The notes beneath the pieces are model-generated. The model saw only the letters and a program-made list of their open reading frames with translations, was not told where the DNA came from and ran no database searches. A DNA stretch of 64,000 nucleotides. Source: Octopus vulgaris (taxonomy: Eukaryota). Location of the stretch: the NCBI GenBank assembly GCA_951406725.2, contig OX597819.1, positions 44,454,001 to 44,518,000 on the forward strand, written 5' to 3'. Every line of letters starts with the position of its first letter. Position 1 is the stretch's first letter. Shown here piece after piece: positions 3,283 to 60,069 of this stretch. Position numbers and translations under genes: made by a program.

Positions 3283-3982
3283 TCATATTTCTATAAAACA
3301 ATAATAGCAGGATGGTACGTTATAATCGTACACACGTTGAATCATATAAAGATACACATTTATACTTAGACAAGTTCAATTTAAAACAAGAAATGCTTAT
3401 TTTAGTGTTTTATATTTTTATGTATCTTTCTGGTAAACTTACTCATCGTTTTCTTTACACGTTACAAAGATCACCTTATGATTGGTCAAACATACCAAGT
3501 GACAATTCTACAAAGTGTCATAACTAGTATCAGATTTTTAGAATTATGAGTTATGAATATTATTCGCGGTATAATGTAGTAAACGTGATAAATCAATAGT
3601 ATTTCTCTCGTCTTTAATTTCCTAGTTTGAAACAAACTTATTATTCTCCAATGTATCGAAGGAAACGTGTTGCAATAGTTTTGTGAATGCTTGTGACAAA
3701 GGGAGGAAATAGAAAATGCAGCTTATGTATAGATCTCCCAAATATAGGTTCTAATTACTCTGGTTTATCATTTTGATTCGTAGATAACACGTGATTGTTG
3801 GACACTAAAATTGGCTGCAAAAAGTTCATGGCATAATTCGTGGCCAGTAGCCAGATATCTTTTCGTAAATATTATACATAGTTAGTAGCAAAATAACATT
3901 GGCAATATCCTTATCTAATTTGGCATTTTGTTATATTTAGATAATACATGGTTAGTTTTTTAAATCTCACAGGATCGTATGT

Positions 3983-3984
<2 letters not shown>

Positions 3985-4036
<52 letters not shown>

Positions 4037-4092
4037 GCAATAATAATAATAATAATAATAATAACAACAACAACAACAACAATAATAATAAT
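3985..4092. repeat. (AAT)n/(AAC)n microsatellite
   Basis: Directly visible. Confidence 0.95.
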
Positions 4093-4978
4093 GATATTTT
4101 CCGTCTAAAACATATTTTTAATTGCATAATAGTTTCTCAAATCCTTCTTGGCATAGCAGCTGGTTTGCAGGAAATAACGTTTGATGATATACTGGTGATA
4201 CTAATATACATTTTAATAACATACTGAGAAATTAAAAAGAAAGAAGAAAAAATAACAGGAATTCGTTTGTGTATATGGACAGCACGACGATGAGTGTAAA
4301 GTGATGGGTACCATATGGGACCCTATAGAGAATTAATCAACTGCGTAGAACTTCGTTCGAAAGTTCTGCACCACTTTCTTATACTTACCATTCATATTCT
4401 TCTCTCTCATCATAACTCTGGTAACAAGTATTGCATAATGACCAAAGGTGATTTGGATACAAAGTCACCTTTGCTTGCAGTGAACACATCGAAAATTATT
4501 CGAATAAAAACGTCCGTAAATTGTCGGAGAAACGTATTTAGTGGGGAAGCTGTTTTTGGTCAAATGTGGGTAATAGTGAAATTGGTGCTTAATAAAATAT
4601 CAGTCACATCATTTAAAAGGAATCTAATACTCAGGTAACACCACCAGTTGACCCCTTAGGTACTTTTAGCAGAGTCTACAATATTGGAGATATTTAAATC
4701 AATTATCGAATCGAAGGGAAACTGAATCTCTTCTATTTTTCACAATGGTGTTGGCGATTTTATAAAATGATGATAGCTGGTGCTCCGTCCTTCCAGATTA
4801 AGTTGTAAAAACGGATGTGTGAATGAGGTTGCAAGTCTCAAAACCTTGCTATTATTTTAAACTTATTTAAATCTTGTAAGTTCAGTTTGATATGAAATGA
4901 AACAGGCCAGCAACCTAGACATTTAAAATACTCGAATCTAACTTAAATAGTGTAATCGATAGTAAGACCTAGATATAT

Positions 4979-22976: not shown

Positions 22977-23035
22977 GGCGCAGACGTGTCTGTGTGGTAA
23001 GTAGCTAGCTTACCAACCATATGGTTCCGGGTTCA
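22977..23035 (+). mobile_element. SINE B head only, truncated within the B box
   Basis: GGCGCAGACGTGTCTGTGTGGTAAGTAGCTAGCTTACCAACCATATGGTTCCGGGTTCA matches the first ~60 nt of 39954, then runs straight into the VNTR. Confidence 0.85.
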
Positions 23036-24107
23036 AGCCAAAAGGAGAGCAAGCAAAAGGAGAGCAAGCCAAAAGGAGAGCAAGCTAAATAGAGAGCAAG
23101 CCAAATAGAGAGCAAGCCAACTGTAGAGGAGGCTAGCTGGGGAGCAGCAGGTCAGCTGGAGAGCAGCAGGCCAACTGGAAAGCAAGCCAGCTCGAGAGCA
23201 GGCCAACTGGGTAAGCTGGGGAGCAGGCCAACTGGAGAGCTGGCAAGCTGGAGAAAAGGCCATCTGGAGAGCAAGCCAAAAGGAGAGCAGGCCAAATGGA
23301 GAGCAAGCCAAAAGGAGAGCAAGCCAACTGTAGAGGAGGCCAGCTGGGGAGCAGCAGGCCGACTGGGGAGAAGGCCAGCTAGAGAGGAGGCCAGCTGGAG
23401 AGCAGCAGGCCAACTGGAGAGCAGGCCAGCTGGAGAGCAGCAGTCCAACTGGAGAGCAGGCAAGCTCGAGAGCAGGCCAACTGGGTAAGCTGGGGAGTAG
23501 GCCAACTGGAGAGCCAGCCAACTTGAGAGCAAGCCAAAAGGAAAGCAAAAAGAAGAGAAAGTCCATTGGAGAGCAAGTCAAAAAGAGAGGAAGCCAAATG
23601 GAGAGCAAGACAAAAAGAGAGCAAACCAACTGGAGAGCAAGCCAACTGGAGAGCAAGACAACAGGAGATAAAGCCAAAAGGAGAGCAACAGGCCAGCTGG
23701 AGAGCAGCAGGCCAACTGGAGAGCAGGCCAGCTGGAGAGCAATCCAGCTGGAGAGCAGGCAAGCTGAAGAGCAGAGAAGCTGGAGAGCAGGCGAACTGGA
23801 GAACAAGCAAAAGGGGAGCAAGCCAACTGGAGAGCAAGCCAAAAAAAGTAGAGCAGGCCAGCTAGAGAGCAGGCCAACTGGAGAGCAGGCAAGCTTGGGA
23901 GCAGGCTAAATGGAGAGCAGGCAAGCTGGAGAAAAGGAGAGCAAGCCAAATTGAGAGCAAGCCAAAAGAAGAGCAAGCCCAATGGAGCAAGCCAACTGGA
24001 GAGCAGGCCAGCTGGTGAGCAGCAGGCCAGCTGGAGAGCAGCAGGACAACTGGAGAGCAGGCCAGCTGGTGAGCAGGCCAACTGGAGAGCAGGCCAACTG
24101 GAGAGCA
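23034..24107. repeat. Purine-rich minisatellite/VNTR, ~16-bp unit (GGAGAGCAGGCCAACT / GGAGAGCAAGCCAAAA) with 19-bp (+CAG) variants
   Basis: Directly visible, ~1.07 kb, with blocks of variant units repeated. Confidence 0.92.
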
Positions 24108-39953: not shown

Positions 39954-40350
39954 GGCGCAGGAGTGGCTGTGTGGTAAGTAGCTTGCTTACCAACCACATG
40001 GTTCCGGGTTCAGTCCCACTGCGTGGTACCTTGGGCAAGTGTCTTCTACTATAGCCTCGGGCCGACCAAAGCCTTGTGAGTGGATTTGGTAGACGGAAAC
40101 TGAAAGAAGTCCGTCGTATATATGTATATATATATAAATGCGTGTGTGTGTCTGTGTTTGTCCCCCTAGCATTGCTTGACAACCGATGCTGGTGTGTTTA
40201 TGTCCCCGTTACTTAGCGGTTCGGCAAAAAGAGACCGATAGAATAAGTACTGGGCTTACAAAAGAATAAGTCCCGGGGTCGAGTTGCTCGATTAAAGGCT
40301 GTGCTCCAGCATGGCCGCAGTCAAATGACTGAAACAAGTAAAAGAGTAAA

Positions 40351-42319: not shown

Positions 42320-42518
42320 ATCTGTCTCGCTGTGTGTGTGCACACAGATAATTATATATGTTTATACGTATTTTTCTATGAATTATATATAAGAGGTTCG
42401 TAAATCTTAGCTTATTTTAATAGCTCTGGCCACCCAGTGATTAGAACGACAGCTACACACCCTATCTTCTAATGGGTCTCCACCTTCATTCATGTGTACA
42501 TCCTAATATAATCAAGTT
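42320..42518 (+). repeat. ~200-bp dispersed direct repeat, copy 1
   Basis: Near-identical to 44467-44671. Confidence 0.9.
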
Positions 42519-44466: not shown

Positions 44467-44671
44467 ATCTGTCTCGCTGTGTGTGTGCAAACAGATAATT
44501 ATACATATATATGTTTATACGTATTTTTGTATGAATTATGTATAAGAGGTTCGTAAAGCTTAGCTTATTTTAATAGCTCTGGCCACCCAGTGATTAGAAC
44601 GACAGCTACACACCCTATCTTCTAATGGGTCTCCACCTTCATTCATGTGTACATCCTAATATAATCAAGTT
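44467..44671 (+). repeat. ~200-bp dispersed direct repeat, copy 2
   Basis: Near-identical to 42320-42518; TAAATCAAT occurs on both sides (44451 and 44671). Confidence 0.9.
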
Positions 44672-44911: not shown

Positions 44912-45003
44912 GACGCAGGAGTGGCTGTGTGGTAAGAAGTTTGCTCTCCAACTCCATGGTTCCAGGTTCAGTCCCACTGCATGGCACCTTGGGCAAATGT
45001 CTT
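44912..45003 (+). mobile_element. SINE B, 5' half (split by a 6.3-kb insertion)
   Basis: Ends ..CACCTTGGGCAAATGTCTT; the SINE resumes at 51332 with AGTGTCTTCTACTATAGCC. Confidence 0.9.
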
Positions 45004-45131
45004 CAGTGGCCCAGCAACAAAATTTACTAAGGGGGTGCAAACCCAGGTCCTAATTTTTTTAATGAAAAATCTGGATTTTTCCAATGTTAACATTAAAACA
45101 AATGCAGGTATAATAATAATTTTTATTATTA

Positions 45132-45380
45132 TGAGGGTCGGCTGAAATGTTCATAATCTGAGCAAGACACTCTCAATGGAATGTGACCAAATGAAGTTCA
45201 TTTTCTAACATAGTTCCTCTTACTGTCCACACACTTCCATTAGTAGTTGCAGTGCTTGGGTCGCACAGGTGAAGAAGCTTTTCTCTTGATCAAAATGGTC
45301 ATCAGCAACAGATAAGATGTTCTCATCATAGTGATACTGGTGCTCAGCTGAGTGTTTTTCTATGTTGGGAAACGGATGTT
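45132..45380 (-). mobile_element. Mariner 3'-end fragment
   Basis: TA-TGAGGGTCGGCTGAAA mariner-type TIR and minus-strand remnant of WxKCVDxxGxYV (WKCVDSKRNYVRK). Confidence 0.55.
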
Positions 45381-45384
45381 GTAT

Positions 45385-45737
45385 ACAATTTTAAATAGAT
45401 AACTGGAGAGTGGCTGACAAAGGTCCTACTGAGTGATGCTAGCACCACCTCAGCCTTTTTGACATTCTTAGATATGTGGTTTGTCCAATGCAGATTGTTG
45501 TTTACAATAATACCCAGAGCATGTCCACCAGAAGACTTTTTGCGATTGGTGTCGGTGAGGGATTATGTAAAAGCTGGATTTTTCCTCCCAAATTGCATGG
45601 TGACACACTTGTCTACAGAGAGCTTGAGTTGCCAGTCAGAGATCCAGTTCTGCAGTGTATCCAGATCTGATTCAGGATTGTAAAGGTTCTTTTTATTTCA
45701 AGGTGCAGCTTGGAATCATCTGCATATTTCAACACTA
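45385..45737 (-). pseudogene. CR1/L2-like LINE reverse transcriptase fragment (YADD region)
   Basis: Minus strand VLKYADDSKLHLEIK..DLDTLQNWISDWQLKLSVDKC..ALGIIVNNNLHWTNHI..LSRTF..LKLYTT. Confidence 0.85.
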
Positions 45738-47901
45738 AACTTTCCAGGAAGTTTTCGACAAAATTTCCCGGAAGTTAGAAAATCCCCGGAACTTTCCAGG
45801 AAGTTATCGACTAAATATCCCGGTAGTTAGAGAATCCTCGAAACTTCACAGGAAGTTTTCGACCATATATCCCTGAAGTTAGAAAATTCTCGGAACCTCA
45901 CAGAAAGTTTTCGAACAAGTTTCCCGGAATTTAGAAAATCCTCAGAACTTTACATGAAGTTTTCAAACAAATATCCAGTAAGTTAGAAAATCCTTGGAAC
46001 TTTCCTGAAAACTTCCGACCAAATATCCCCGAAGTTAGAAAATCCTCGGAACTTTCCTGAAAATTTCCGACCAAATATACCGAAGTTAGAAAACCCTCAG
46101 AACATTCCAGGAAAATTTCAACCAAATTTCCCGGAAGTTAGAAAACCATCGGAACTTCCAACGAAGATTTCGACGAAATTTCCCGGAAATAAGAAATCCT
46201 CGGAACTTCCCATGAAGTTTCGACGAAACTTCCCAGAAGTCAGAAAATCCTCGGAAAATCCCAGGAAATTTCCGACGAAACTTCCAGGAATTTAGAAAAT
46301 CCTCGGAACTTCCCAGGAAGTTTTCGACGAATGTTCCCGGAAGTTAGAAAACCATCGGAACTTCCCAGTAAATTTTCGACGAAAATTCCAGGAAATTAGA
46401 AAATCCTTCCCCGAAGTCAGAAAATCCTCGGAACTTCCAAGGAAGTTTTCGGCGAAATTTCCCCAAAGTCAGGAAGTTAGAAAATCCTCGGAACTTCCCA
46501 GGAAATTTTCGACCAATTTCCCCGGAAGTTAGAAAATCCTCGGAACTTCCCAGATAGTTTTCGACGAAACTTCCCGGAAGTCTGGAAATCCTTGGAACAT
46601 CCAAGGAAGTTCTCGACGAAACTTCCCGAAGGTCTGGAAATCCTTGGAACAACCAAGGAAGTTTTCGAAGAAACTTCCCGAAAGTTATAAAATACTTGGA
46701 ACTTCCCAGGAAGTTTTTGACTAAACTTCCCCGAAGTCAGAAAATCCTCGGTACTTCCCAGGAAGGTTCGAACAAATTTCACGGAAGTTAGAAAATCCTC
46801 TGATCTTCCCAGGAACTTTTCCGACGAAATTTCTCGGAAATTAGATATATTTTGGAACTTCCCAGGAAGGTTTCGATCAAGCTTCTCGAAGTTAGAAAAT
46901 CATCGGAACTTCCCGGGAAATTTTCGACGAAACTTCCCGGAAGTTAGAAAATCCTCGGAACTTCCCAGGAAGTTTTCGACGAATGTTCCCGGAAGTTAGA
47001 AAACCATCGGAACTTCCCAGTAAATTTTCGACGAAAATTCCAGGAAATTAGAAAATCCTTCCCCGAAGTCAGAAAATCCTCGGAACTTCCAAGGAAGTTT
47101 TCGGCGAAATTCCCCAAAGTCAGGAAGTTAGAAAATCCTCGGAACTTCCCAGGAAATTTTCGACCAATTTCCCCGGAAGTTAAAAAATCCTCGGAACTTC
47201 CCAGATAGTTTTCGACGAAACTTCCTGGAAGTCTGGAAATCCTTGGAACATCCAAGGAAGTTCTCGACGAAACTTCCCGAAAGTCTGGAAATCCTTGGAA
47301 CATCCAAGGAAGTTTTTGACGAAACTTCCCCGAAGTCAGAAAATCCTCGGTACTTCCCAGGAAGGTTCGAACAAATTTCACGGAAGTTAGAAAATCCTCT
47401 GATCTTCCCAGGAACTTTTCCGACGAAATTTCTCGGAAATTAGAAATATTTTGGAACTTCCCAGGAAGGTTTCGATCAAGCTTCTCGAAGTTAGAAAATC
47501 ATCGGAACTTCCCGGGAAATTTTCGACAAAACTTCCCGGAAGTTAGAAAATCCTCGGAACTTCCCAGGAAATTTTTGACCAAATTTTCCGGAAGTTAGAA
47601 CATCCTAGAAATTTCCAAGAAGTTTTCGACCAAATTCCCCGGATGTTAGAAAATCCGCGGAACTTTCCAAGAATATTCGACCAAATTTCCCGGAAGTTGG
47701 AAAATCCCCGGAGCTTTCCAGGAAATTTTTACGCAATATGCCGGAAGCTAGAAATCCTCCGAACATCCCAGGAAATTTTCGACCAAATATCGCGGAAGTA
47801 AGAAAAGCCTCGGAACTTCCCAGGAAGTTTTCGATCAAATTTCCTGGGAGTTAGAAAGTCCTCGGAACTTTCCAGAAACTTTTCGAGGAAGTTAGAAAAT
47901 T
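45738..47901. repeat. 52-bp tandem satellite (~41 monomers), consensus about GGAAGTTAGAAAATCCTCGGAACTTCCCAGGAAGTTTTCGACGAAACTTCCC
   Basis: Period read from TTAGAAAA at 46292 and 46344. Higher-order duplication offset is 652 bp (46344 vs 46996), then ~599 bp. Confidence 0.95.
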
Positions 47902-48996
47902 TAACTGAAGTTATTTTCCCAGTGAACATTCCTTGTAACCTTTCAATTTCTTCTGTGAGACTGGATGAGTATGAATATTAAAATTTAAGCAGTAATTTAT
48001 ACTGCTCTGAACTAGGGTTTTCCCTGAAAATAAAACTAACTACCGGTTCCCTTGTCATGAATATTCGTAGGATGCAGCCTATGAGTTTGTTGCATTTAAA
48101 GGTTACTTTGATAATATGTCTGATAGAAAATGCATAATTTGACATGATTACATCTAAGTCCTGTATGTCATTAGTGCTCTGAATCATTATGTTACCTTGT
48201 CTCAAATATTGCGATTTCGTTTGTAATGAAGAAGCTGAAACTTTGATGTACTAATTTTCGTATTTTTTCTTGTTTAGATCCAAGCCATCGATATTCTTGT
48301 GTAAGTCATTCCCTGATGTATACGACGTATTACAGGTATCTTAGAGAGAAATCCATTTGCAGTAATAGGTTGACTCCTACCATATAGAGAGTTAAAGAAC
48401 CATTCTCCGACTTTTCCTGTGATACCAAGATTTCCTAAATTATGACAGATGATTCCATGATCAGTCTTGTCAAACGCCTTAACAATATCAAGGTTTTAAC
48501 AGTCAATGATCTTACCCCTTAAGAGATTATTAGAGGTAGTGTTATGATGCTGTAAGAATTGTGACAGGCAACTTCGTTCAGTCCGAAACCTATACCGAGT
48601 GTCATCTAAGTTGTTTTCCTCCAGGTATGTTATTACTTTTTGTCTTCGGACAAGGCATTGGATAATTTTAGACGTGTAAGACGTGAGGGAAACAGGTCTG
48701 TAATTTTTAGCTTCAGCACTGCTACCTCCCTTGTACCTATATAGGTTTTATTATAACTTCTTTCAATAGTCTCGGGAATATGGCGGTATCTGACGACTTT
48801 TGAAACAGTACCTTTAATGACTTCATGAGGTGTTTTTTGCATGTTTTTAGCAATATAACCGGAATACTATTTGGTACAGATGCTGAGTTTGGGCCTAAAT
48901 CATTAATAGCCGCAAGTATATCAACTTCCATGATATTAATTTTAAGTTGTGTCTCTGCACTTGAGTTGTGGGATCAAAGAATTCGCTTGGATTATG
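47902..48996 (-). pseudogene. Old CR1/L2-like LINE ORF2, RT region (decayed)
   Basis: EVDILAAINDLGPNSASVPNSIPVILLKTCK..LFQKSSDTAIFP, RSCLSQFL, DIVKAFDKTDHGI..LGITGKVGEW and IGCILRIFMTRE; many stops and frameshifts. Confidence 0.85.
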
Positions 48997-50071
48997 CACG
49001 GGGCTGCGATACGGATAGAGAATGCGGCCTTCCGCCTGTTGAAACGAAAGTGTTGGGGATAGAGTTTGCGATCATGCCCACGCAGACCTCTATCCGGCGC
49101 AGGGGTGAAAATCTCCGCAAATGGTAGGCTTACATGTCCGTTGAATATGTTGAAAGTCGGATGAGATCTCCCTGCATCCTCCGTCGTTTGAGTGAAGGCA
49201 ATACCAGCCGTCGGAGATGTTCCTCTTACGCAAGCTTAGACAAGCCCGCGCCCATTCGGGTAGCCACGTGCTGAACCCATTCCAGGTGCTGAATGTCTTT
49301 CTGGAGATATGGGTTTGAGGTATGGATGTAATATTCAAGGATGGGTCGAACTAGAGTGATATATACAGGCCAAAAGACGTCCATTGAAAGGTTAGCAAAG
49401 GATCGTTGGATGAGGAAAAGATTCCTTCTGGCTTTGTTCGCCGCCTCGATACCCTGCCGTGGCAGTTTGAAAGTAGTATCGATCATTATGCTGAGATCCT
49501 TTTCTTCAGTGACCATCTTAAGATGTTGATGTTTGTGGCCAATAGTCAAGGGAGAGTTTGGAGGTGAACCTATTGGCAAATGGCTGCATTTTGTGGCGTT
49601 CAAGTTCAGATTCCATTCTTCCGCCCAATTCCAAGCTCGGTTCAGCGACAATTGGGGTATGTCGTATTGATTCCCAGGTGAGACGAGTTTGACGTCGTCT
49701 GCAAATAGGAGAACTCTTCCATCAAGAAAATCTGACAGGTCGTTGATATAGAGAAGGAAAAGTATTTGCCCCAGCACCGACCCCTGGGGAACGCCGTTGC
49801 ATGCATTCGTCTCCGCTGAGAGATCTCTATTTATCTGCACCCAAAAGGTGCGATAGCTCAGGAAGGAAGAAATCCACAAAGTCAACAATGGATGAATCTT
49901 GAATGCTCGAAGTTTGCGCAAGATAAGTCAGTGATTAACGGAGTCAAATGCCTTTGCGAAGTCCAAAAATACCACGCCCACCAAGTCTTTTGCACCCATG
50001 GTCCTTGTAATCCATTCTTCAAGAAGGAGAAGATTTGTTAGGCAAGATCTTCAGGGTAGAAATCCATGCTG
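48997..50071 (-). pseudogene. Younger CR1/L2/Jockey-group LINE RT fragment, truncated at both ends
   Basis: QHGFLP*RSCLTNLL..VFLDFAKAFDSVNH*, GVPQGSVLGQILFLLYINDL..LLFADDVKL, YITLVRPILEY and RRKAAFSIRI; 231-aa open stretch at 49226-49921. Confidence 0.93.
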
Positions 50072-50560
50072 CTAGTCGGATATTTCTTTGTACCATATAC
50101 AGATAATTGTATAATGCTTTGGTTGGAAATAGCTGTGGGAATGACATGAACATTGAGAATAAAAACAAAGTCGAGTATGCTGTTTTCCCCTAATTGGACA
50201 GGTAATAATTTGTTGTATGGGAAAGTCTTTTGTTGTATCGAGGAAAGTATTCATATCCCTCCACATCAGTTGCTTGGTTCCAGGCTGGATATAATTCTCG
50301 GACCAGCTAAGATTAGTAAAATTAAAGACCCCTGTTAAAAGCATATTCGCCTGTGTGCTGGCCTCAGCTAAGGTTAGACTTGTGAGTAAAAAAAGCACCT
50401 CTGAAGTGATCTTCGTGATTAACCGCGTCAGGATGACGGTAGCTAATGCTTTTAATATCATTTCCTTTTTATATAAATTAGTCTGAAATTGTTCTTTGCA
50501 AATTTCTTTGCAAATTAGGTAATTTCAGGGTTGGTCTGCAATCATTTATAGTTAAATGTT
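50072..50560 (-). pseudogene. APE endonuclease remnant of the old LINE
   Basis: LLTGVFNFTNLSW (GDFNxPxIxW) and QQIITCPIRG (QxVxxPTRG) motifs. Confidence 0.65.
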
Positions 50561-50606
50561 TCCTTTCAAAATCTTTTTTTTTTTATTAAACTGGACTAGT
50601 ATTTCG

Positions 50607-50685
50607 AATGAGCAATAAGTATCAAAGCATTTAACAATGAGCATTAAATATCAAAGCATTTAACAATGAGCATTAAATATCAAAG
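50607..50685. repeat. 29-bp tandem repeat, ~2.7 copies
   Basis: AATGAGCATTAAATATCAAAGCATTTAAC units start at 50607, 50636 and 50665. Confidence 0.9.
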
Positions 50686-51331
50686 ATAAAAATAAATCAT
50701 TTTGTTCTCTTGTCAAACTTTAGACCTAACAACCTAAATGAGAAAACCGATATGACTGAAAGAACTTTTAAAGGGCTTTTATTTTTAGGCTGAGGTGAAA
50801 CAGTCGAATCCATTCAACCATGTCGTCAGTCTTTAGCAACATCAACTACAAAGAACTTGAGAGAGGTGACAGACTGAGAGAGGACAAGAACCTTCACACA
50901 TTTTCAGCATTGCAAGATTTTGGAGTTATTTTTGTCAGAATAGAGCTGTCTTCAAGAATCCAAGTAATGCTATGTATTGAAGAGTAGCCGTAGATGCTGG
51001 TCATATTGTTGTTCTTGTTGTTTGGTTCTACTGTTGTCGTTGTCACATACTTTTTATTTTGATGCTACTTTGCTTCAGAAGTTGGTTAGTCATAAATTCC
51101 CTTGGGAATTTTAAGCCCAGCTTCATCACTTTTATTTATTTATTTTTGTTCTTTGTTTTTGCTTTGAAACGAAATCTAGCTTCAAGCATCTTATACAGAT
51201 AATTTTTTAGACACTATTTTCGGAAACTGGTAAAATTATGTAGGGGGGTGCAAATTTTGATCTTGCACCACCTGAAAATTCCAAAGAGTGCAGGTGCACC
51301 TGCTGCCCCCCCCCCTGTTCCCGGGCTCTTG

Positions 51332-51426
51332 AGTGTCTTCTACTATAGCCTTGAACCGACCAAAACCTTATGAGTGGATTTGGTAGACAGAAACTGAAAG
51401 AATCCCGTCGTATATATATATATGTA

Positions 51427-51492
<66 letters not shown>

Positions 51493-51630
51493 CCTATCAC
51501 CATCGCTTTCCAAATGATAGAATAAGTACTAGGTTTACAAAGAATAAGGTGTCTGGTCGATTTACTAGACTAAAGGCGGTGCTCCAGCGTGACCGCAGTC
51601 AAATGACTAAAACAAGTAAAAGAATAAAAA
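51332..51630 (+). mobile_element. SINE B, 3' half
   Basis: Continues the 44912 head exactly at the TSD; expanded TG tract; tail ..GACTAAAACAAGTAAAAGA. Confidence 0.9.
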
Positions 51631-58955: not shown

Positions 58956-59193
58956 TTGTTGGTATTAATCTCTCTAATACCAACAATGATGAGGGAAGAG
59001 AGTTATTATCTTACAATTTCTTATATACGAATGTCAAAACCCAAAGAAGCAAATTTTGAAAAGAAACCAACTCTGCAAATGAGAATCACAATAAAGTACA
59101 AACGAAAGACAGAAATAGGTATACTACAGTCACTCTGTCGGTTAGGTTACAACGATGGGGGTTCCATTTGATCCGATCAAAGGAACATCCTGC

Positions 59194-59813
59194 GGATCTT
59201 TTCCTTTTGAACGGCAGATGTCAACACAATTTTTAGTTAACTAAACACTTTTAAACTTCGTATACTGGTAGAATGTGTTTATAAAACATCATTTTCTCTT
59301 GGTTTTTATTGAGAAAATTCTATAGTTTGTAAGATATTTCGTCTGAAAATCCGAGCATTTCGGTAATTTTAACCATTCGATTACCTCCATTCAACTAAAA
59401 TCATTTGCTGCGTCTAAAACTGAGACAACATCCTGTAACTAACCCTAAACCTCCCCCTAACCCTAACTTTTTTTCTTAATTGTTAAATTAATTTAATTCC
59501 ATTGCTTTAGTTTTTTTTTACACGCGTAACAATTAAATTAATTTAACAATTAAGAAAAAAAATTAGTGTTAGGGTTAGGGTTAGGGTTAGTTACAGGATG
59601 TTGTCTCAGTTTTAGACGCAGCAAATGATTTTAGCTCAAAAAAAGCATAGGATTGGTTAAAATTCGAAAAATTAAACTACGTTAAACAAATTACAATTTT
59701 CTCAAGAAAGCCAAGAGAAAAAAATGTTTTATTTTGACACATTCTACCAGTATACGAAGTTTTAAAGTGTTTAGTTAACTAGAAATTGTCTGCCGTTCAA
59801 AAGGAAAAGATCC
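59194..59813. mobile_element. Foldback MITE related to 52965-53852, with internal telomeric-type repeats
   Basis: TIR GGATCTTTTCCTTTTGAACGGCAGA; arms complementary over most of the length; (TTAGGG)3+ at 59569-59590; interrupts a SINE C-related element (59120-60050). Confidence 0.88.
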
Positions 59814-60069
59814 GAGCACTACACAGACACACGTACCCTTAATGTAGCTCTCAGGGAGATTCAGCAGGACACAGAATGCGACAAGGCTGGCCCTTTTGAA
59901 TTACAGGTATCACTCATTTTCGCCAGTTGAGTGAACTGGAGCAACGTTAAATAAAATTCTTTGCCCAAGGACACAATGCGCCGTCAGGAATCGAACTTAT
60001 GCACTTTAATCGTGAGCCGATACACTGACCACTAATCCACGTGCCTTCGCTACAGAAATAGAAATACAT

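What the first reader, a model, noticed from the sequence alone, without database searches (positions are those of the whole stretch)
45004..51331. 6.3-kb TIR/TSD-bounded composite carrying LINE fragments and a satellite splits a SINE
Seen: SINE B stops at ..GGGCA-AATGTCTT (45003) and resumes 6328 bp later at AGTGTCTT-CTACTATAGCC (51332). The intact SINE at 39954 reads GGGCA-AGTGTCTT-CTACTATAGCC, so exactly 8 bp are duplicated. The insert ends are inverted (CAGTGGCCCAGCAACA vs revcomp CAAGAGCCCGGGAACA). Inside are a mariner end, three separate RT fragments, an APE remnant (all minus strand) and a 2.2-kb satellite, but no hAT transposase. Established: 8-bp TSD and CAG-type TIRs characterise hAT elements. 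Inference: either a small MITE later became an insertion sink, or a Pack-type element moved pre-assembled cargo. The cargo LINE looks more decayed than the host SINE, which favours cargo capture and would make the element a vehicle for dispersing the satellite.
Basis: partly seen in the sequence, partly recalled or inferred. Interest (0 to 1): 0.75.

Follow-up and report, generated by a model that had tools for sequence, protein, structure and literature searches.

The report
Jumping gene ferrying satellite DNA cargo
This insert is one copy of a broken cut-and-paste jumping gene, found on many chromosomes with the same load of dead retrotransposon pieces and tandem-repeat DNA; it likely gathered that load step by step, then spread it in one burst using an enzyme borrowed from a relative.

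Summary
The anatomy is confirmed (8-bp duplication with one mismatch, imperfect 16-bp inverted ends, split SINE, RT pieces, 52-bp satellite), and the mobile-composite reading wins. The genome holds 80 exact left-end 24-mers. Of 24 two-ended copies seen, 22 carry 22 different 8-bp duplications, 14 hold the satellite, and the internal junctions recur. Ends and cargo all lie about 3% from the family majority, so they spread together. Corrections: the frame is a deleted hAT that keeps a transposase N-terminal remnant, not a MITE; the window copy has a private 1.67-kb deletion; the mariner piece and one LINE entered by ordinary nesting, seen stepwise in sister lineages; the one datable cargo LINE is not more decayed than the host SINE. 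The satellite is older and also lies in free arrays: 23 of 42 satellite loci examined sit in this element. Two copies appear to have moved with the left end of a related hAT. No matching autonomous element or donor locus was found. It works like maize filler-bearing Ds, multicopy Pack-TIRs and oyster Cg_HINE: a new variant of a known kind.

The parts
44912..45003 (+). 5' part of host SINE, ending in the left target-site copy (44996-45003)
45004..45128 (+). hAT left end: 16-bp imperfect TIR and subterminal region
   Evidence: 80 exact 24-mers in the genome; aligned with five related end types
45129..45378 (-). 3' end of a mariner-like element inserted at a TA of the hAT; about 500 bp in undeleted copies
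   Evidence: empty site in relatives L281 and L282; label from recalled motifs, no Pfam hit
45378..45379 (.). breakpoint of a 1.67-kb deletion private to this copy (rest of mariner piece, hAT backbone, 190-bp repeat insert, 3' end of LINE-a), 2-bp microhomology
   Evidence: junction found only in the window among 130 loci
45379..45737 (-). LINE-a RT fragment; its natural 3' tail abuts the hAT backbone in undeleted copies
45738..47890 (+). 52-bp satellite array, about 41 units; same majority unit as free arrays elsewhere
47900..48995 (-). LINE-b RT fragment, broken frames; joined to the satellite by a deletion shared with 4 other copies
48996..50071 (-). LINE-c RT fragment cut at both ends, one dead copy of a free LINE family
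50075..50450 (-). LINE endonuclease-like remnant; right limit approximate
   Evidence: recalled motifs only; no Pfam or tblastn hit; shared by family copies
50459..50579 (-). remnant of the N-terminus of a hAT transposase
   Evidence: 68-76% nucleotide identity (best E 5e-14) to all 30 hAT loci tested; tblastn E 2e-5, and 1e-12 in copy L286; the reference protein carries PF14291 and PF05699
50580..51331 (-). hAT right end (5' region of the former gene) with TIR at 51316-51331
51332..51629 (+). right target-site copy (51332-51339) and 3' part of host SINE

Best explanation
The insert is one copy of a multi-copy, internally deleted hAT transposon whose copies share the same load of repeat fragments and satellite; it likely gathered the load stepwise and was likely moved by a transposase supplied in trans. 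Shown: shared junctions, distinct 8-bp duplications, equal divergence of ends and cargo, sister lineages with fewer inserts, older satellite and LINE-c. Inferred order: coding hAT; mariner insertion at a TA; LINE-a retrotransposition; entry of the satellite, an 800-bp spacer, LINE-b, LINE-c and the endonuclease piece (by nesting plus deletion or by template-switch repair; not resolved); then a burst at about 3% divergence. Further deletions were inherited by sub-lineages, so copies went through more than one round of transposition. Arrays then likely grew or shrank in place. One copy nested in a related hAT, and the pair likely moved on with the outer left end and the inner right end.
For: 24 two-ended copies in 130 loci plus the window: duplication exact in 16 (one only with a 2-base shift in an AT run), one mismatch in 6, worse in 2; 22 distinct; 14 with satellite. 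LINE-b/c junction crossed by 40 of 40 scored hits, 36 over nearly the whole query. Eleven segments 2.6-4.8% and a twelfth (190-bp repeat, mixed with free copies) 4.8% from the majority. Star-like clade of 52 right ends apart from 8 sister-family ends, support 100/100. Empty mariner site and transposase core remnants in relatives L281 and L282. L287 has mariner and LINE-a but lacks the 190-bp insert. LINE-a keeps its 3' tail. Window's LINE-a/satellite junction in 11 other copies against 5 with the longer form; its satellite/LINE-b junction in 4 others. Outer-left plus inner-right duplications, 7 of 8 bases, at two loci.
Against: No autonomous element with these ends among 50 transposase loci fetched of 122 matches; the intact 720-aa family has a different TIR. 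No donor locus for the satellite-LINE-b-LINE-c block was identified. Most copies are one-ended: 2 of the first 20 left ends had a right end within 10 kb. Loci were picked by likeness to the element, so fractions are not genome-wide. Several duplications lie in AT or CA runs and are weak singly. The hybrid-end claim rests on two loci, and 1.85 kb of one was not viewed. No read or contig shown spans this locus's SINE/TIR junctions.
Confidence: 0.9

Rival explanations
1. One-step Pack-type capture: a deleted hAT copied a ready-made block of satellite and dead LINE pieces from another locus by template switching, then amplified. This may hold for the satellite-spacer-LINE-b-LINE-c-endonuclease block only.
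For: LINE-c is cut at both ends and lacks the tail of free copies; the family ancestor was already 4.8% from the free-copy majority and its majority sequence has 3 stops and a frameshift. The satellite is older than the burst (8-19% within-array divergence). No intermediate with part of this block was seen.
Against: Mariner and LINE-a entered the hAT itself. No donor locus was seen. Nesting followed by deletion gives the same cut ends, and deletions are frequent in this family.
Confidence: 0.35
2. A small MITE inserted into the SINE and later collected insertions at this locus alone.
For: The 45378 junction is private to this copy.
Against: All other junctions recur elsewhere with other duplications; no short empty form was seen (shortest two-ended copy 1740 bp).
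Confidence: 0.01
3. The satellite arose inside this hAT lineage and seeded all free arrays.
For: Identical majority unit in element-borne (880 units) and free (352 units) arrays; 7 of 42 loci are isolated arrays that could be orphans.
Against: 12 of 42 loci lie beside 34-bp or 59-bp satellites in satellite-rich stretches; units are far more diverged than the element; sister family B shows no satellite.
Confidence: 0.1
4. The copies are segmental duplications or assembly artefacts.
For: Two one-ended copies on C18 (L225, L226) share flank hits.
Against: Similarity stops at the TIRs, with different flanks and duplications on many contigs; contigs of two independent runs cover every bin of both stretches laid.
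Confidence: 0.02

Closest known systems
Maize Ds2 and Ds-l4 elements with filler DNA; compound Ds and Ac/Ds macrotransposons (PMC3260210, passages read)
   Same: Non-autonomous hAT with unrelated internal DNA, nested transposons, multi-copy filler clusters, and movement with ends from two elements.
   Different: Animal genome; cargo is LINE pieces plus a genomic satellite; roughly 100-200 copies (estimate) of a 2-11 kb element; assembly steps survive as sister lineages.
Multicopy Pack-TIRs such as Pack-hAT-N8_XT and Ssk-FB4 (PMC8277862, passages and section 14 read)
   Same: TIR element that acquired internal sequence and then transposed repeatedly with distinct duplications.
Cg_HINE non-autonomous Helentrons of the Pacific oyster (PMC7492417, abstract and outline only) and DTC84 MITE of Donax (PMC3879986, abstract and outline only)
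   Same: Mollusc mobile elements that scatter satellite-like arrays of variable length, some related to classical satellites.
   Different: Those have the repeat as their own core; this is a hAT with 8-bp duplications that likely took in a pre-existing satellite along with LINE debris.
Tetris, miDNA4 and Xmix/Xstir (listed in PMC9659126, passages read; PMC4079207, search listing only)
   Same: TIR elements linked to satellite arrays.
   Different: There the satellite is described as born from the element; here it appears older than the element.

Membership tests
hAT superfamily, non-autonomous | 8-bp target-site duplication | tested here: met
   22 of 24 two-ended copies, at most one mismatch
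hAT superfamily, non-autonomous | short terminal inverted repeats (length range recalled) | tested here: met
   11 of 16 bases in the window; relatives 14 of 16
hAT superfamily, non-autonomous | homology to a hAT transposase | tested here: met
   N-terminal remnant 50459-50579; core remnants behind related left ends, E 5e-9; reference has PF14291 and PF05699
hAT superfamily, non-autonomous | autonomous partner with the same ends | tested here: inconclusive
   none in 50 of 122 transposase loci fetched
MITE | short, no coding remnant | tested here: not met
   two-ended copies 1740-9260 bp; transposase remnant present
Pack-TIR (Tan et al. 2021) | internal sequence flanked by ends of one TIR element; recurrent transposition | tested here: met
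Pack-TIR (Tan et al. 2021) | unique parental copy not associated with the element | tested here: inconclusive
   only free family relatives at 84-89% for LINE-c; no donor locus seen; genome not scanned exhaustively
Pack-TIR (Tan et al. 2021) | internal sequence 100-5000 bp (operational limit) | tested here: not met
   about 5.3 kb in the window and over 7 kb in fuller copies
Helentron (Cg_HINE type) | no 8-bp duplication; asymmetric subterminal repeats (recalled) | tested here: not met
   8-bp duplications and terminal inverted repeats present
Tip100/Ac branch of hAT | placement of the full transposase in a hAT tree | not tested
   only remnants; the branch name for PF14291-bearing hATs is recalled

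The most novel reading that the evidence does not exclude
This hAT lineage is a growing ferry: it gains length by nesting and by swapping in the outer end of related elements, and it is the main route by which a satellite from satellite-rich domains reached the rest of the genome, including the orphan arrays, which then grew in place past 5 kb. Because each unit spells STAT- and ETS-like sites (names recalled; not preferentially conserved), it would also have scattered clusters of signal-responsive binding sites.
Probability: 0.25. Interest if true: 0.65.

Novelty: new variant of a known kind. Interest (0 to 1): 0.45.

Why it matters
It gives a countable case of a satellite dispersed by a cut-and-paste transposon in an animal. 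Arrays that began from one source at about the same time now range from 95 bp to over 4 kb, so rates of array growth, loss and homogenisation can be measured. It shows that multi-copy cargo-carrying TIR elements, reported as rare in animals, can be missed when the cargo is itself repeats. It also warns that fragment-wise annotation would count and date these LINE and mariner pieces as many independent insertions.

Tried and rejected
Autonomous partner: PF14291 search (122 matches; 50 fetched) found an intact 720-aa family with different ends and no locus with these ends. Pfam on mariner, endonuclease-like and right-end frames: no informative family. Sister family B as the empty ancestor: rejected, because its junction also lacks hAT sequence that family A keeps, so it is a deletion junction. 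A second carrier element around free arrays: no TIR pair with a credible duplication at 13 loci; one array (L198) lies between inverted repeat copies. A 35-mer satellite pattern was too strict (7 hits). Direction of satellite transfer from unit sequences: majority units identical, uninformative; unit picking favours the reference. Binding-site conservation: motif positions not more conserved than others, p 0.54-0.95. Raw-read runs X22, X23, X24 laid 7, 4 and 0 reads: no test of polymorphism. Run X12 (organism C) gave very low summed depth over LINE-b and the transposase remnant; this hints at absence of the family but depth is not copy number. Sequence look-ups in earlier findings gave only unrelated phage notes or nothing.
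Full report
Observation. The window is G000:C6:44454001-44518000 of a 2.8-Gb genome in 227 contigs; octopus is inferred from earlier scan notes and not tested. The host SINE is split between AATGTCTT (44996-45003) and AGTGTCTT (51332-51339); the intact SINE has the 8-mer once. The ends are inverted at 11 of 16 bases. The 52-bp array spans 45738-47890. Three RT pieces lie on the minus strand, with Pfam support strong for one and weak for two. The mariner and endonuclease labels are recalled motifs without a tool hit.

The composite is a family. Exact patterns gave 80 left ends and 54 right ends, controls 0; some right ends belong to sister families. At about 3% divergence an exact 24-mer survives in roughly half of copies, so I estimate about 165 left ends. 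Among 130 loci of 10 kb, chosen by likeness to the element, plus the window, 24 copies had both ends. Their duplications were exact in 16, one base off in 6 and worse in 2, with 22 distinct sequences; lengths were 1740-9260 bp and 14 held the satellite, 95-4342 bp long. Junction counts in those loci: left end/mariner 54, LINE-b/c 26, LINE-c/endonuclease 39, and the 45378 junction 1, the window itself. A genome search across the LINE-b/c junction scored 40 of 119 candidates; all 40 cross it. Most copies are truncated: 2 of the first 20 left ends had a right end within 10 kb.

One burst, several rounds. Twelve segments from end to end lie 2.6-4.8% from their majority (n 11-48 each; hits under 84% identity or 85% cover dropped); the window copy lies 1.6-5.9%. 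Right ends form a near-star of 52 rows apart from 8 sister-family rows; the bootstrap had not settled. With the octopus rate quoted in PMC13282606 (0.0036 per million years), 3% is about 8 million years, if that rate applies. Internal deletions are inherited: the window's LINE-a/satellite junction occurs in 11 other copies while 5 keep more LINE-a, and its satellite/LINE-b junction occurs in 4 others while most keep part or all of an 800-bp spacer.

The frame is a deleted hAT. Window 50459-50579 matches all 30 top transposase loci at 68-76% and aligns to residues 24-47 of a 720-aa protein bearing PF14291 and PF05699. Related left ends in L281 and L282 run straight into transposase core remnants. 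The intact family has other ends, and no autonomous partner was found in 50 of 122 loci.

How the load was gathered. L281 and L282 show the empty TA site of the mariner piece. L287, 82-88% like family A, has the mariner piece and LINE-a but not the 190-bp insert. LINE-a keeps the tail seen in three free relatives, next to hAT backbone. These two therefore nested into the hAT. LINE-c is different: 8 free relatives at 84-89% were found; the cargo copy is cut at both ends, was 4.8% from their majority before the burst (free copies 4.6-9.2%, leave-one-out), and its majority has 3 stops and a frameshift. Whether the satellite-to-endonuclease block came in one capture or by nesting and deletion is open. 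Sister family B shares backbone and right end at about 70-80% and shows no LINE or satellite load, but its junction is itself a deletion.

The satellite. A 24-mer gave 139 matches; the 100 listed fall into 42 loci by my grouping. By my reading lie in or against pieces of this element (one behind the related outer end), 12 lie beside 34-bp or 59-bp satellites, and 7 are isolated. Units diverge 8-19% within arrays and have the same majority inside and outside the element, so the satellite is likely older than the burst. One element-borne array reaches 5.1 kb (L216). The unit holds TTCNNNGAA and CMGGAAGT motifs (43 of 59 and 21 of 23 window matches; STAT and ETS names recalled), but these positions are not more conserved than the rest.

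A second tier. A related left end lies 0.5-1.0 kb upstream of the family-A left end at 5 of 30 loci, with the same junction printed for 4 of them. At two loci the flank of the outer left end matches the flank of the family-A right end at 7 of 8 bases (C7, 10.9 kb; C21, 1.1 kb). This suggests movement with ends from two elements.

Other runs. Contigs of organisms A and B cover 30 of 30 bins on both stretches laid, and each has a 175-base piece identical to 45563-45737.

Literature. Read: PMC8277862 (passages, section 14), PMC3260210 and PMC9659126 (passages), PMC3879986 and PMC7492417 (abstract, outline), PMC13282606 (parts 1-2 of 3; its one supplement was listed, not opened; its repeat library is outside reach and may hold this family). 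PMC4079207: listing only. Eight searches showed no description of this family or of a hAT carrying a cephalopod satellite; Repbase and Dfam were not searchable.

Verdict. A real, mobile, non-autonomous hAT composite. Every ingredient has a precedent; the combination, copy number and preserved assembly steps make it a new variant of a known kind. Interest 0.45.

Noticed in passing
L252, L253, L254, L255, L258; L261, L241, L251, L286: A related hAT left end upstream of family-A sequence; two loci have duplications that pair the outer left end with the family-A right end.
   Followed up: partly
L131, L133, L136, L137, L140, L149, L150, L151, L154: Sister family B, about 90% alike within, with other nested inserts, including a telomere-like repeat-bearing insert behind the left TIR in L140, L149 and L154.
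   Followed up: partly
L101-L130: A young hAT family with open frames up to 720 aa (PF14291, PF05699), copies 96-99% alike; possibly recently active.
   Followed up: partly
L191, L195, L196, L199-L203, L208, L209; L192, L193: The 52-bp satellite abuts a 34-bp satellite (arrays over 4 kb) or a 59-bp satellite, with strand switches inside some arrays.
   Followed up: partly
L062 oriented 3822-4200; L169: Variant arrays with 21-, 47- and 73-bp periods derived from the 52-bp unit inside element copies.
   Followed up: no
L158 (C3:58199500-58209499): Left-end and right-end pieces of the element in opposite orientation, about 2.4 kb apart.
   Followed up: no
L213:5546-5880: A 52-bp array followed by a sequence that looks like the end of a different hAT (recalled pattern).
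   Followed up: no
window 45129-50579: Mariner piece, all LINE pieces and the transposase remnant read on the same strand.
   Followed up: no
window 23034-24107: 1.07-kb array of a 16-17-bp unit with long stop-free frames on both strands.
   Followed up: no
window 59193-59814: 620-bp stretch that is 78% self-complementary.
   Followed up: no
window 42320-42518 and 44467-44671: 200-bp direct repeat at 95% identity, 2.1 kb apart, just left of the host SINE.
   Followed up: no
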